Shown here in pieces: positions 38,184-42,563 of a stretch of DNA of 64,000 nucleotides. Below the pieces are notes generated by a model. It did not search any database and was not told the origin of the DNA. It saw nothing but the letters and a program-made list of their open reading frames with translations. This DNA comes from Nematocida ausubeli (lineage: Eukaryota), in the NCBI RefSeq assembly GCF_000738915.1, contig NW_026515637.1, forward strand, positions 124,001-188,000, given 5' to 3'. How positions within the stretch are numbered: position 1 is the stretch's first letter; each line of letters opens with the position of its first letter. The position numbers and the translations under genes were made by a program.

Positions 38184-39458
38184 ATGGAGCAAGAACAAGT
38201 GAGAAATTCAAGTTTCAATGGAGATGAAGTACTTATTGTAAATGGAGGATCATTCGGGGAAAGATTAAAGAATCTCATAAAAGAACAAGGAATTGAATCT
38301 GTTGAAACCATACGTACAAAAGACTCCATGAAAATAAAGAATAGATTATACCAGGCAGTTACTCATAGCATGGCTTCTGCACTGGATAGAGTGCAGTACT
38401 ACGCAGACTACTCACTAAGACTAAAGTGTAAGTCTAAAGTAGACTGGAGCATACTAAGGGAGAAAATAAAGAAAAAAGTACATGAAATAGAGGCAAATAA
38501 GAGAGCACCAGAAGACATATATTCAATTGAGAAGAAAGGATCTGAAATATATATTAATGGGGAAGTCTGTAAGGCAAAGAATATAGTTGTAGTGAATACT
38601 TTAGAAAATACAGAAGAAATTAACCTGAATAACCTATGGATTAAACTAGTAGAGTTAGAGAGTACTTCTTTTTGTGTATTTTTAAGTGGTGGTGGTAAAC
38701 AGACTGTAGAGACTGCTTCAATTCTCTCAGATTTAGGGTGTAAAGTATATTTATCACTGAAGGATACTGTACTTCTACCAGAGTGCGATACAAATATCCA
38801 GGAGAATATTAAAAATATACTTCTGGAGAAAGGCGTAACACTCTTCTTTGAGTCATCAGTAGAGATAGTTAATGAGTTAGACAGGACTTACACTGTGACT
38901 GTAAATACTTCTAATGGGTTTAGTCAAGTAGTCAAGGATATAGACTATTATTTCACTGAGAGAGAATATTCTTTAGAGATAAATATAATGGAAAGTCAAA
39001 GGATACTAAGTGTATCTGAGCCAGGAAAGAACATTGGGAAGGCAGAGGTAGAAGTACTTAATAACTTGTTTCCATCTGAATTCTCAAAGGATAAGAAGTA
39101 CTTTCCTTTGGTGCCTACATATATCTATACAAGCCCTCCTGCTGCAGCTGTTGGGTACACTGAAGCCATGGCAAGAAAGAACTTTCCTTCAGTGCGTGTT
39201 GTAAACCCGAAGTTCAGAGGATTATTCTACTCAGTCTGCCAGAATAAAGTACCAACGGATTATAAGCTTGTGTTTGCCTTGGATACTGCAGAGAATCCGC
39301 AGAAGGAGAGACTCGTTGGATTGCATCTATTTGGGGCAAGTAGCATCGATGCAATTAAAGGGTTTTCTATAGGTATGTACTGCGGAATATCCCCAGAGGA
39401 TATTTTGAAAACAATCCCAATCCATCCGACTTCATCAGAAGAAGTTATTACAGGATAG
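38184..39458 (+). CDS. Degenerate glutathione-reductase paralog retaining only the interface domain and catalytic His-Glu (IHPTSSEE)
   Basis: Vestigial VLIVNGGSFG, no CxxxxC, degraded NADPH motif; intact VPTYIYTSPPAAAVGYTE, LVGLHLFG, KGFSIG, TIPIHPTSSEEVIT; ATG at 38184. Confidence 0.85.
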   Translation: MEQEQVRNSSFNGDEVLIVNGGSFGERLKNLIKEQGIESVETIRTKDSMKIKNRLYQAVTHSMASALDRVQYYADYSLRLKCKSKVDWSILREKIKKKVHEIEANKRAPEDIYSIEKKGSEIYINGEVCKAKNIVVVNTLENTEEINLNNLWIKLVELESTSFCVFLSGGGKQTVETASILSDLGCKVYLSLKDTVLLPECDTNIQENIKNILLEKGVTLFFESSVEIVNELDRTYTVTVNTSNGFSQVVKDIDYYFTEREYSLEINIMESQRILSVSEPGKNIGKAEVEVLNNLFPSEFSKDKKYFPLVPTYIYTSPPAAAVGYTEAMARKNFPSVRVVNPKFRGLFYSVCQNKVPTDYKLVFALDTAENPQKERLVGLHLFGASSIDAIKGFSIGMYCGISPEDILKTIPIHPTSSEEVITG

Positions 39459-39689
39459 TGTTATATTCCTTAGATAATTCAAGTATGCTAAGTTATATTA
39501 ATCTGTATGTACTGGTTTTCTGTCATATTACTATTTAGATATTTCTTTGGATTTTTATGAAAGTTAATTTACGTAATAATAACAAACTCTTCTGTTAGTA
39601 AACTTACAATATTTACTAATTTGAAATAAACTGATCTGTTTGTATGCATAATACAAAGCTATATAAATAAACTGAGGTTGAATAATACA

Positions 39690-40247
39690 ATGAATACGAA
39701 AAACAAAAGAAGTATCAGCAGTATAAAGAAAAATAGACCAGCCATATACAAGTTAATACTCTTTTTCTATATATACGCATACACTACGGCTACATTAGAT
39801 GATATAACCCGAATGAACCCAGATAATAATGACCAGATGGAGACTTCAAAAAACCAAAATAATTTTGAAAGAAACCCTTCACTGGATACTTCTTTAAAAA
39901 GCACTTCTGAACAGAATAGCACTGAATTCTCAAATTCAGATCAACAATCATACGAGTGGGATTATCCTTTCAATGGACTTTTTGTATTACAGGAAGATAA
40001 TACAGAACTAGTTGGTTTAAATCCATTATTAAAGAATGAGCTTAATTTAAAATTAGAAAACATATTCAAACAGTTAGACTTGTTGAATGGAGATATCCAG
40101 AAGGAGTATTTTAAGCTTTTTGAGATTAGAAAGAAAATAGAAAGACTATATAAGCTGGTAGATGAAAGAGTAATAGAAGAGCAAATACTTCTTACAAATT
40201 TAAAAATAGCAAAAGAGAAGTACTCTAAAGGCTTTAAAGAGGAATAA
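39690..40247 (+). CDS. Hypothetical secreted or signal-anchored coiled-coil protein
   Basis: Basic N-terminus, hydrophobic LILFFYIYAYTTA, heptad-like C-terminus; ATG at 39690. Confidence 0.7.
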   Translation: MNTKNKRSISSIKKNRPAIYKLILFFYIYAYTTATLDDITRMNPDNNDQMETSKNQNNFERNPSLDTSLKSTSEQNSTEFSNSDQQSYEWDYPFNGLFVLQEDNTELVGLNPLLKNELNLKLENIFKQLDLLNGDIQKEYFKLFEIRKKIERLYKLVDERVIEEQILLTNLKIAKEKYSKGFKEE

Positions 40248-41231
40248 TTCTATGCTGAATTGGAAATAATTATGTAAGAATTTAAGATACTCCTTATACT
40301 AAGTCTTCTATTGTGGAACTTGCACAAAAAAGCTTTTTATAGGGATAGGTTTTGTATGCATATAAGACATATAATGGCAGTGACATGTCACAGTGGTGGA
40401 AGCTATTTAAAGAAGAACTTTCATTCATGTCATGCGGGTATGGCTGGGATATTTTGCTTTGATTTTTTAGTAAATGCCTCTGTCATTTATTTTTTGCTCT
40501 CTCAAGTAGAATTTTATCTGTCTTTATAGTGGATTTCTTATCTTGGGATAGTGAAGACTTTTTAATCTTTGTTGATATAAGAAATCTCTGAAGGCATAGC
40601 AAAATTACCACAGTCAGATATGCTATTGACTATAATAACAATTTAATCTGTCTTTGTTTACTTTTATAGATAAGATCAGTTAATTAGTTTGTTTACTTTG
40701 ATAAACGACAGAATTAACTTAAAAACAAAATTAAACAGTTCAGTCTTCAATAAATACTAAAGTCTAAAAATAATTCCTTTTAAGGAATCAATTACAAGTA
40801 TTACTACTATCTTTCTATAAACCTAATAAACCTAATAAACTCTTTTCTGCTTAGAACAAAGAAATACGTTATTAAGTTTTTCTTGCATATTTAAATTCCA
40901 CTTCTAAATGCAATAGCATGGGTGCAGCAGTATACATACGTATTATTACGTTCTGTATATAGAATTGTTTATATTAGGGGAATATCTGGCTGTATTTGTG
41001 TCTAGTGGGTTTACTATGGTTATAGACTATCTATTTTCTAGTCCTAAAAGGTACTAAAATAGATTATAATGAAGTATTCAGATTATACTTCTGGTTGTGC
41101 TTTGTAATAAACTTCCATTTACTTGACTAATTAATAGTGTTATTCTATGCTATTTGTCTACTCTGCTGGATATTTGAAAATGAAAGTGCAGGATTTCTTC
41201 TAATAAAGAATTAATACTTTGTATTTTTTAA

Positions 41232-42563
41232 ATGTACGACCTGGCGGTAATAGGAGGAGGGAGTGGTGGCCTGGCACTTTCTAAAAGGGCAGCTGCAGTC
41301 TATGGGAAGAAAGTCTTGCTCGTTGAGAAGGATGCCATGGGAGGTACTTGTGTAAACACCGGGTGCATTCCAAAGAAGATGCTTTATAATCTGGCATCTT
41401 TAAATACGGAGGGAAAGTGTTTATACGGAGACCAGAAGACAGAGCATAATTGGAAGGAATTTAGAGAGAAGAGAGATAAATATATCCACTTTCTTAATGA
41501 AATGTACATAAAAAGGAATGAAAAGGACGAAGTTACAACTGCTAAGGGAACTGCAGTGATTGGTAAAGATTCAATCAATGTGGGTGAAGATATTTATGCA
41601 GCGAAAGTGACAGTTCTTGCTATGGGATCTAGACCAAGTACTTTGGAGTGCACTGGAAAGGAGAATTTCATGACAAGCGATGACTTTTTCAAGTTTGATG
41701 AAGTCCCTGCAAGTATAGTCATCATAGGCACAGGATACATTGCAATTGAAACAGCATGTGTACTTCAGGAATTTGGCTGTAAGGTGACTCTGGTGGCAAG
41801 GAGAACAGGTGTACTAAGGGCCTTTGATGAAATGATACAGAAAGGTGTGCAGGATAGTCTTATGCGCAAAGGAATCCGTTTGATTGAGAAAGTAACTGTC
41901 ACTCATGTAGAAAAAGTCAGTGAAGGCGTTAGAATAACACTTGCATCCGAGAGTGGAAGTGAAATAATCTCAGCAGAGAAGGTCATCTGTGCAATTGGAA
42001 GGCATGCGAATACAGAGGCAGTGATGAACCCAGAGATAAAAAAGACTCAGTATGGGTTCATAGATACAGATGACTTCTTTCAGACAACTTATAGAAATGT
42101 ATATGCAATTGGAGACATAACCATGGATCAGCACATGCTTACACCCGTGGCAATATTCTGTGGAAGGCGACTAGCTGACTATTTGTATAAAAATACAGTT
42201 AAGAGGACCCTGAAGGAATTAGTTCAGTCTGTTCCTACAGTTGTATTTTCATACCCTCCTGCTGGCTCAGTTGGATACACAGAAGAACAAGCCAGAAATA
42301 TAAAAGATTCTGTGTCTGTGAAGGAGTTTCAGCTCTTCCACCCAGCATCTCTTTTTTCCAGCCAAAAGAACACATATAAATTTATAGTGTGCAATGAGAC
42401 ATCTGAAATATGCGGAATTCACGTGTATGGCTATGAGTGTGATGAGATTCTTCAGGGATATTCTGTGCTAGTGCGAAATAATATTACATATCCTCAAATG
42501 TCTGAATATTTCCAGTCGATTGGTGCGGATCCATATGACATTCTATCAGGCGTGTTTGAATAA
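41232..42563 (+). CDS. Glutathione reductase-like flavoprotein lacking the C-terminal HPTxxEE motif
   Basis: YDLAVIGGGSGG, GGTCVNTGCIPKK, GTGYIAIE, LRAFD, AIGR, YAIGD, LTPVAI..GRRLA, VPTVVFSYPP, GYECDEILQG; ends YFQSIGADPYDILSGVFE. Confidence 0.92.
   Translation: MYDLAVIGGGSGGLALSKRAAAVYGKKVLLVEKDAMGGTCVNTGCIPKKMLYNLASLNTEGKCLYGDQKTEHNWKEFREKRDKYIHFLNEMYIKRNEKDEVTTAKGTAVIGKDSINVGEDIYAAKVTVLAMGSRPSTLECTGKENFMTSDDFFKFDEVPASIVIIGTGYIAIETACVLQEFGCKVTLVARRTGVLRAFDEMIQKGVQDSLMRKGIRLIEKVTVTHVEKVSEGVRITLASESGSEIISAEKVICAIGRHANTEAVMNPEIKKTQYGFIDTDDFFQTTYRNVYAIGDITMDQHMLTPVAIFCGRRLADYLYKNTVKRTLKELVQSVPTVVFSYPPAGSVGYTEEQARNIKDSVSVKEFQLFHPASLFSSQKNTYKFIVCNETSEICGIHVYGYECDEILQGYSVLVRNNITYPQMSEYFQSIGADPYDILSGVFE

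What the first reader, a model, noticed from the sequence alone, without database searches (positions are those of the whole stretch)
38184..42563. Two glutathione-reductase paralogs with complementary catalytic losses: candidate obligate heterodimeric 'split active site' enzyme
Established: class-I pyridine nucleotide-disulfide reductases (glutathione reductase, lipoamide dehydrogenase) are homodimers. Each active site takes FAD and the CxxxxC disulfide from one subunit and the acid-base His-Glu dyad (HPTxxEE, His467'/Glu472' in human GR) from the other. Seen: gene 41232-42563 has GGGSGG, GGTCVNTGC (41340-41366), the NADPH motif GTGYIAIE, YAIGD and LTPVA. Its C-terminus is the normal length but reads YFQSIGADPYDIL where HPTxxEE belongs. 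Gene 38184-39458, 1.8 kb upstream on the same strand, is the mirror image. Its FAD motif has decayed to NGGSFG, the CxxxxC segment is absent, and there is no GD/TPVA. It nevertheless keeps IHPTSSEE (HPTSSEE at 39423-39443) and an F..L.Y.V segment resembling the substrate-site residues donated in trans. Both ORFs are uninterrupted and over 420 aa. Inference: duplication followed by reciprocal degeneration. Each homodimer would be inactive, and the heterodimer would have one working site. I do not know of this being described for this family, but cannot verify novelty.
Basis: partly seen in the sequence, partly recalled or inferred. Interest (0 to 1): 0.93.

Follow-up and report, generated by a model that had tools for sequence, protein, structure and literature searches.

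The report
Glutathione reductase split between two paralogs
In Nematocida, a genus of tiny intracellular parasites of nematodes, two neighbouring genes each keep only one half of the glutathione-reductase active site, and they likely must pair up to make one working enzyme, a natural case of a duplicated enzyme becoming dependent on its twin.

Summary
Observation confirmed and extended. The window is from Nematocida ausubeli or a very close relative (microsporidia). Gene F (41232-42563) keeps the FAD, CxxxxC, NADPH and GD/LTP motifs and lacks HPTxxEE. Gene H (38184-39458) keeps HPTSSEE and lacks the rest. The split is genus-wide: 15 of 15 F-type relatives have CxxxxC and no HPT; 18 of 18 H-type relatives have HPTxxE and no CxxxxC. 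Ten of 12 named Nematocida taxa have both by name, 9 of those 10 as neighbours. Of 86 positions conserved in intact reductases, 52 survive only in F, 9 only in H (7 meaningful), 16 in both. A predicted F+FAD+H complex scores 0.92 (best control 0.00) with H His414 on F Thr304/Pro305; that may reflect likeness to solved homodimers, and homodimers were not modelled. Best reading: an obligate heterodimer with one live and one dead site. Untested: activity, binding, and absence of an intact copy elsewhere in the genome. The principle is known (trypanosomatid deoxyhypusine synthase); 9 literature searches found no natural case in this family.

The parts
38184..39458 (+). Gene H: glutathione-reductase paralog, 424 aa; lacks FAD, disulfide and NADPH motifs, keeps the trans-acting half of the site
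38241..38258 (+). Decayed FAD glycine motif NGGSFG (aa 20-25)
   Evidence: first Gly kept in 2 of 17 H sequences
38403..38417 (+). ADYSL arm (Tyr76 invariant in H); predicted to pack on F helices 53-57 and 73-80
39210..39236 (+). KFRGLFYSV: Phe344 and Leu347 match E. coli F375 and M378, donated in trans
   Evidence: 17 of 17 H; F375 in 1 of 15 F
39420..39443 (+). IHPTSSEE: acid-base His414 and Glu419 (E. coli H439/E444)
39690..40247 (+). Intervening 185-aa ORF; annotated hypothetical in N. ausubeli relatives; absent between the pair in most other species (consecutive accessions); not part of the enzyme
41232..42563 (+). Gene F: glutathione-reductase paralog, 443 aa; FAD, redox disulfide and NADPH sites intact, His-Glu dyad lost
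41253..41270 (+). FAD motif GGGSGG
41340..41378 (+). GGTCVNTGCIPKK: redox Cys40/Cys45
   Evidence: 15 of 15 F
41727..41750 (+). NADPH motif GTGYIAIE, followed by Arg190 and Arg196
42102..42152 (+). YAIGD ... LTPVA; Thr304/Pro305 predicted to touch H His414
42438..42458 (+). CDEILQG: Asp404/Glu405/Gln408, kept in 15 of 15 F; Glu405 predicted to touch H Thr416
42507..42545 (+). Tail YFQSIGADPYDIL in place of HPTxxEE (Ile430-Gly431 at the His-Pro positions)

Best explanation
The two genes encode complementary halves of glutathione reductase that likely assemble as an F:H heterodimer with one working active site and one dead one. Shown by sequence: F carries FAD, NADPH, Cys40/Cys45 and the same-subunit substrate residues; H carries His414/Glu419 and Phe344/Leu347. 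Predicted: H's C-terminal loop docks on F's catalytic region as the partner subunit does in the homodimer. Inferred from the family mechanism: NADPH reduces F's FAD, electrons pass to F's disulfide, glutathione disulfide binds in the F/H cleft and H's His-Glu pair does the acid-base step. Inferred: an F-F dimer would lack the acid-base pair and an H-H dimer would lack the flavin, so both genes are now required. The likely route is duplication followed by stepwise complementary loss.
For: (1) HPTxxE in 18 of 18 H-type and 0 of 15 F-type clusters; CxxxxC in 15 of 15 F-type and 0 of 18 H-type. (2) Of 86 positions conserved at 85% or more in 29 hand-picked intact reductases, 52 are kept only by F (n=15), 9 only by H (n=17; 7 meaningful: E. 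coli F375, F419, H439, P440, T441, E444, E445), 16 by both, 9 by neither. (3) F keeps substrate-side residues (K/R at human R37, Tyr at Y114, Arg at R347: 15 of 15 each; roles of R37 and R347 recalled) and the D/E/Q helix that meets the partner's HPT loop, although F has no HPT loop of its own. (4) Both genes are named in 10 of 12 Nematocida taxa; accession numbers lie within 2 of each other in 9 of those 10; metagenome locus L002 shows them 271 bases apart on one strand. (5) Complex prediction: score 0.92, best of 3 controls 0.00; the mark was reached by 51 of 78 solved complexes and 2 of 108 mismatched pairs; runs agree in at least 84% of contacts; partner pLDDT at least 78; H414 touches F304/305, H416 touches F405, F Cys40 and Cys45 are in the interface. 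(6) Columns in the 25 best-predicted contacts are conserved 0.88 in F and 0.92 in H; the mirror columns only 0.47 and 0.37, several deleted. (7) H is under selection: open frames in full-length relatives at median 40% identity, with 26 invariant columns in 18 sequences.
Against: No activity or binding data. The complex pass may come from likeness to solved GR homodimers: close cousins passed 10 of 12 times in the tool's own test, alignments were not used, FAD placement was not reported, and F-F and H-H were not modelled. The contact-conservation contrast is partly circular, since the model is most confident where sequences resemble canonical GR. No genome was held, so an intact copy elsewhere is not excluded; one search was not exhaustive (it missed P0179, 301 bits). 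N. homosporus and Nematocida sp. AWRm80 have a named F but no named H; unnamed H-types exist but could not be assigned. AWRm79's two accessions are far apart. Trees favour F with intact reductases rather than with H. The arm asymmetry is weaker than it looks: the motif is in 14 of 17 H and 0 of 15 F but also only 2 of 8 of the nearest intact reductases. F's tail keeps its own conserved Tyr426, Ile430, Gly431 and Gly440.
Confidence: 0.8

Rival explanations
1. F works alone as a homodimer without the His-Glu pair (a slow GSSG reductase, a diaphorase, or a reductase of another substrate), and H is a separate regulator or scaffold.
For: Mercuric reductase and transhydrogenase replace the His by Tyr (PMC1924876, passages). 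F's tail conserves Tyr426 in 13 of 15. H conserves an unexplained ExASxLxDLG helix in its dead NADPH domain.
Against: F's Tyr is four positions before the His column and the following Pro is lost in 15 of 15. H keeps exactly the trans-acting catalytic residues at 100%, which a pure scaffold would not need. F positions that would face a second F are variable.
Confidence: 0.08
2. The heterodimer forms as proposed but reduces a disulfide other than GSSG, or has gained regulation through H's dead domains.
For: Both proteins are below NCBIfam GR cut-offs (F 355 and H 110 bits against 480). H's dead nucleotide domains retain invariant residues.
Against: GR is the best family and structure match for both. 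The nearest intact relatives are also below the cut-off (404-416 bits). Substrate-side residues are kept. PMC10393165 names glutathione-biosynthesis losses for other genera, not Nematocida (passage).
Confidence: 0.06
3. A third, intact reductase elsewhere in the genome pairs with F or H or makes them dispensable.
For: The genome could not be searched. Eight unnamed intact reductases are F's nearest relatives and could not be assigned to organisms.
Against: All Nematocida-named hits are F-type or H-type. No intact sequence nests inside the F or H clade.
Confidence: 0.04
4. Both copies are decaying remnants in a reduced parasite genome.
For: H has a very long branch and has lost most family-conserved positions.
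Against: Open frames, invariant catalytic residues and conserved adjacency across species at about 40-50% identity. Among displayed strain differences, 7 of 8 in H and 7 of 11 in F are synonymous (partial list).
Confidence: 0.02

Closest known systems
Glutathione reductase (class I pyridine nucleotide-disulfide reductase; human 1grg, yeast 2hqm, E. coli 1ger)
   Same: Fold, three-domain layout and, summed over F and H, the whole catalytic set. Each site is formed by both subunits (PMC10910545, PMC1924876; passages).
   Different: Known members are homodimers with two equal sites; here neither chain has the full set and only one site can be complete.
Trypanosomatid deoxyhypusine synthase DHSc/DHSp
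   Same: Two paralogs of a shared-site homomer form a heteromer with half the sites dead; activity rises 3000-fold and both genes are essential (PMC3663545 abstract; PMC7581365 passages, which also lists the title of the shared-active-site complementation paper).
   Different: Other fold, chemistry and lineage; a tetramer; experimentally shown, whereas this case is not.
Laboratory constructive neutral evolution of yeast Fcy1
   Same: Two duplicates, each inactive as a homodimer, complement as a heterodimer (PMC10888846 abstract).
   Different: Made in the laboratory with single mutations; here natural, old, with deletions.
Engineered complementing heterodimers of E. coli glutathione reductase and mercuric reductase
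   Same: A Cys mutant and a trans-residue mutant rebuild one site (recalled; not retrieved).
   Different: Engineered point mutants, not natural paralogs.
Intact reductases nearest to F (P0179-P0181, P0183, P0197, P0230, P0235, P0238; unnamed, presumed microsporidian)
   Same: Sister clade of F; four share the MLTPxAxF signature.
   Different: They keep both CxxxxC and HPTxxEE in one chain.

Membership tests
Glutathione reductase (single-chain, homodimeric) | FAD-binding GxGxxG and GD motifs | tested here: inconclusive
   Met by F (15 of 15), not met by H (GD 0 of 17)
Glutathione reductase (single-chain, homodimeric) | CxxxxC and HPTxxEE in the same chain | tested here: not met
   0 of 15 F and 0 of 18 H have both; 105 of 105 non-Nematocida hits do
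Glutathione reductase (single-chain, homodimeric) | NADPH motif GxGYxxxE with two arginines | tested here: inconclusive
   Met by F; H keeps only the first Gly and the Glu
Glutathione reductase (single-chain, homodimeric) | Curated family score (NF004776, cut-off 480) | tested here: not met
   F 355, H 110; intact relatives 404-416 also miss this prokaryote-tuned cut-off
Glutathione reductase (F+H taken together) | Full catalytic set and GR fold in the pair | tested here: met
   77 of 86 conserved positions kept by at least one chain; fold match; predicted site
Glutathione reductase (F+H taken together) | NADPH-dependent GSSG reduction | not testable with these tools
   needs an assay
Shared-active-site complementation between paralogs (DHS type) | Complementary loss of cis and trans catalytic residues | tested here: met
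Shared-active-site complementation between paralogs (DHS type) | Physical heteromer; both genes needed for activity | tested here: inconclusive
   prediction only; co-occurrence by name in 10 of 12 taxa
Mercuric reductase / transhydrogenase type (His replaced by Tyr) | Tyr at the His position | tested here: not met
   F has Ile in 11 of 15 and Tyr in 0 of 15 at that column

The most novel reading that the evidence does not exclude
The first natural flavoprotein disulfide reductase split into an obligate two-gene, half-site heterodimer, fixed across a whole genus. Less decayed H copies (P0176, P0177) record the intermediate steps, and an unrelated H-like protein (P0182) suggests the split has begun more than once.
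Probability: 0.55. Interest if true: 0.9.

Novelty: new variant of a known kind. Interest (0 to 1): 0.82.

Why it matters
It would be a clean natural test of constructive neutral evolution in one of the best-understood enzymes, where every lost residue has a known role and a yeast or E. coli rescue assay is ready. It runs against the usual picture of microsporidian genome reduction: one enzyme now costs two genes. It gives a natural one-site enzyme for questions of half-site reactivity and subunit communication. Both genes are annotated separately as glutathione reductase in public records, which would be wrong for each alone.

Tried and rejected
Whole-genome search: no genome held. Expression: no RNA holder listed. 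Contigs of 4 of the 6 listed runs (one sample, two studies, RNA only a guess) cover both genes and leave some intergenic bins and most of the intervening ORF without cover; this does not show transcription. A full strain pN/pS was not obtained; only 19 of the 40 displayed differences (129 in all) fell in the two genes. The correlation of H and F distances (r 0.96, 55 pairs) is expected from shared descent and is not counted as co-evolution. Assigning unnamed H proteins to N. homosporus or AWRm80 by tree failed. The AU test of P0182 with H did not finish. The metagenome scan gave one H locus (L002) among 80 kept; the others matched weakly (23-41% identity) and were not examined. The protein atlas gave no answer. 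Earlier findings: none. Literature: 9 searches found no description of this pair; locus tags gave 0 papers. Subscription journals are mostly not held. 11 of 23 supplements of PMC10393165 and 26 of 35 of PMC3486916 were not searched and could list these genes. Rows left out: P0178 (276 aa), P0001 and P0018 (near-duplicates). Low confidence of H's C-terminus in the monomer model was not counted as evidence.
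Full report
Setting. Relatives at 95-96% identity are named Nematocida ausubeli, so the window comes from that microsporidian or a very close relative. No whole genome was held. I call the 41232 gene F (flavin) and the 38184 gene H (histidine).

Pfam finds the NADPH and dimerisation domains in both and the full FAD-domain match only in F. Glutathione reductases (GR) are the best solved-structure matches for both. An AlphaFold2 model of H (18 sequences, pLDDT 80.9) matches human GR over its whole length (TM 0.69), so H keeps all three domains although its flavin and NADPH motifs are gone.

The split is old and genus-wide. Searches found 13 H-type clusters and 15 F-type clusters; a profile search added five H-type proteins. 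HPTxxE is present in 18 of 18 H-type and 0 of 15 F-type; CxxxxC in 15 of 15 F-type and 0 of 18 H-type. By contrast 105 of 105 non-Nematocida hits have both; 119 of 138 other hits have both, and the other 19 lack CxxxxC, 18 looking like N-terminal truncations and one (P0182) a full-length decay. Twelve named Nematocida taxa have F and ten of them a named H. In nine of those ten the accession numbers lie within two of each other. Locus L002 shows H at 9992-11281 and F at 11553-12950 on one strand. Exceptions: no named H for N. homosporus and AWRm80, and distant accessions in AWRm79.

The losses are complementary residue by residue. Against E. coli GR and 28 other intact reductases picked by hand from the hits, 86 positions are conserved at 85% or more. 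F alone keeps 52, H alone 9, both 16, neither 9. Seven of the nine H-only positions are meaningful: E. coli F375, F419, H439, P440, T441, E444, E445; the other two are the start Met and a borderline Gly. In GR each site is built from both subunits and the His-Glu pair comes from the opposite subunit (PMC10910545 and PMC1924876, passages). F keeps Cys42/47, Lys50, Tyr99, Tyr177, Glu181, Arg198, Arg263, Asp303, Thr311-Pro312 and Arg319 in 15 of 15 (E. coli numbers). It also keeps Asp413/Glu414/Gln417, which H has changed in 15 or more of 17. H has shortened the GD/LTPVA segment by about 21 residues.

Predicted complex. F+FAD+H scored 0.92 against 0.00 for the best of three controls; the mark was reached by 51 of 78 solved complexes and 2 of 108 mismatched pairs (on eukaryotes 39 of 65 and 2 of 126); runs agree in at least 84% of contacts and partner pLDDT is at least 78. 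H His414 touches F Thr304 and Pro305, H Thr416 touches F Glu405, and F Cys40 and Cys45 lie in the interface. GR homodimers are solved, so the pass may reflect likeness; it does not show which family members bind, and homodimers were not run. Columns in the 25 best contacts are conserved at 0.88 in F and 0.92 in H, the mirror columns at 0.47 and 0.37; this is partly circular.

Mechanism. Shown: the distribution of residues. Predicted: the F:H geometry. Inferred from the family: hydride from NADPH to F's FAD, on to F's disulfide, GSSG bound between F and H, acid-base catalysis by H's His414/Glu419. The mirror site has neither flavin nor His and would serve only as packing. Inferred: neither homodimer is a competent GR.

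History. F and H are each one clade (100/100). F's nearest relatives are eight intact, unnamed reductases, presumed microsporidian. H, F and these form a clade at 98/93 in one row set and 94/80 in another; F joins the intact group at 80/76 and 99/91. H+F as sisters was not rejected (p-AU 0.315) but was not recovered. H is a very long branch, so either a duplication before the split from other microsporidia or an artefact is possible. P0176 and P0177, at the base of H, keep much of the FAD motif and Gln417 but have lost the cysteines, which fits stepwise decay.

Against. No biochemical data; an intact third copy is not excluded, since one search missed a 301-bit relative; two taxa lack a named H; the arm motif that H keeps and F lacks is also rare in the nearest intact group (2 of 8); F's tail has conserved residues of its own.

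Known and new. Paralog complementation at a shared site is known for trypanosomatid deoxyhypusine synthase (PMC3663545 abstract; PMC7581365 passages) and was evolved in the laboratory for Fcy1 (PMC10888846 abstract). Engineered GR heterodimers are recalled, not retrieved. Microsporidia papers mention glutathione reductases only in passing (PMC3486916, PMC4654818 passages). Nine searches found no account of this pair or of a natural split in this family; most subscription journals and many supplements were not searched.

Verdict. Real, conserved and most likely an obligate half-site heterodimer (0.8). A new variant of a known kind; interest 0.82.

Noticed in passing
protein P0182 (unnamed, 517 aa): Full-length GR-like protein with the same pattern as H: FAD, first Cys, NADPH and LTP motifs decayed, HPTSAEE and the FxGMYY segment kept. 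It falls outside the H clade in the tree, with weak support; possibly a second, independent H-type pseudoenzyme.
   Followed up: partly
proteins P0176, P0177 (unnamed): Less decayed H-type proteins at the base of the H clade; their partners are unknown.
   Followed up: partly
window 38709-38747 (H aa 176-188): The helix ExASxLxDLGxKV in H's dead NADPH domain is nearly invariant, with H-specific Ser179 and Asp183; unexplained.
   Followed up: no
window 39690-40247: 185-aa ORF with an N-terminal hydrophobic stretch between the two genes; seen only in N. ausubeli records here.
   Followed up: partly
L002 471-17435 against window 35335-38078, 49253-49954 and 62442-63869: A distant relative keeps Fcf1, GDP-mannose pyrophosphorylase and a hexokinase-like gene near the H-F pair, with rearranged order; the last identity is by eye.
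   Followed up: no
window 5236-6516: 426-aa ORF with a CxxCxxxxHxxxxC knuckle and a protease-like stretch; looks like a retrotransposon gag remnant (by eye).
   Followed up: no
window 13583-18785: Two tandem paralogous ORFs (682 and 718 aa) with N-terminal hydrophobic stretches, followed by a related-looking 1073-aa ORF at 19787-23008; likely a lineage-specific secreted family.
   Followed up: no
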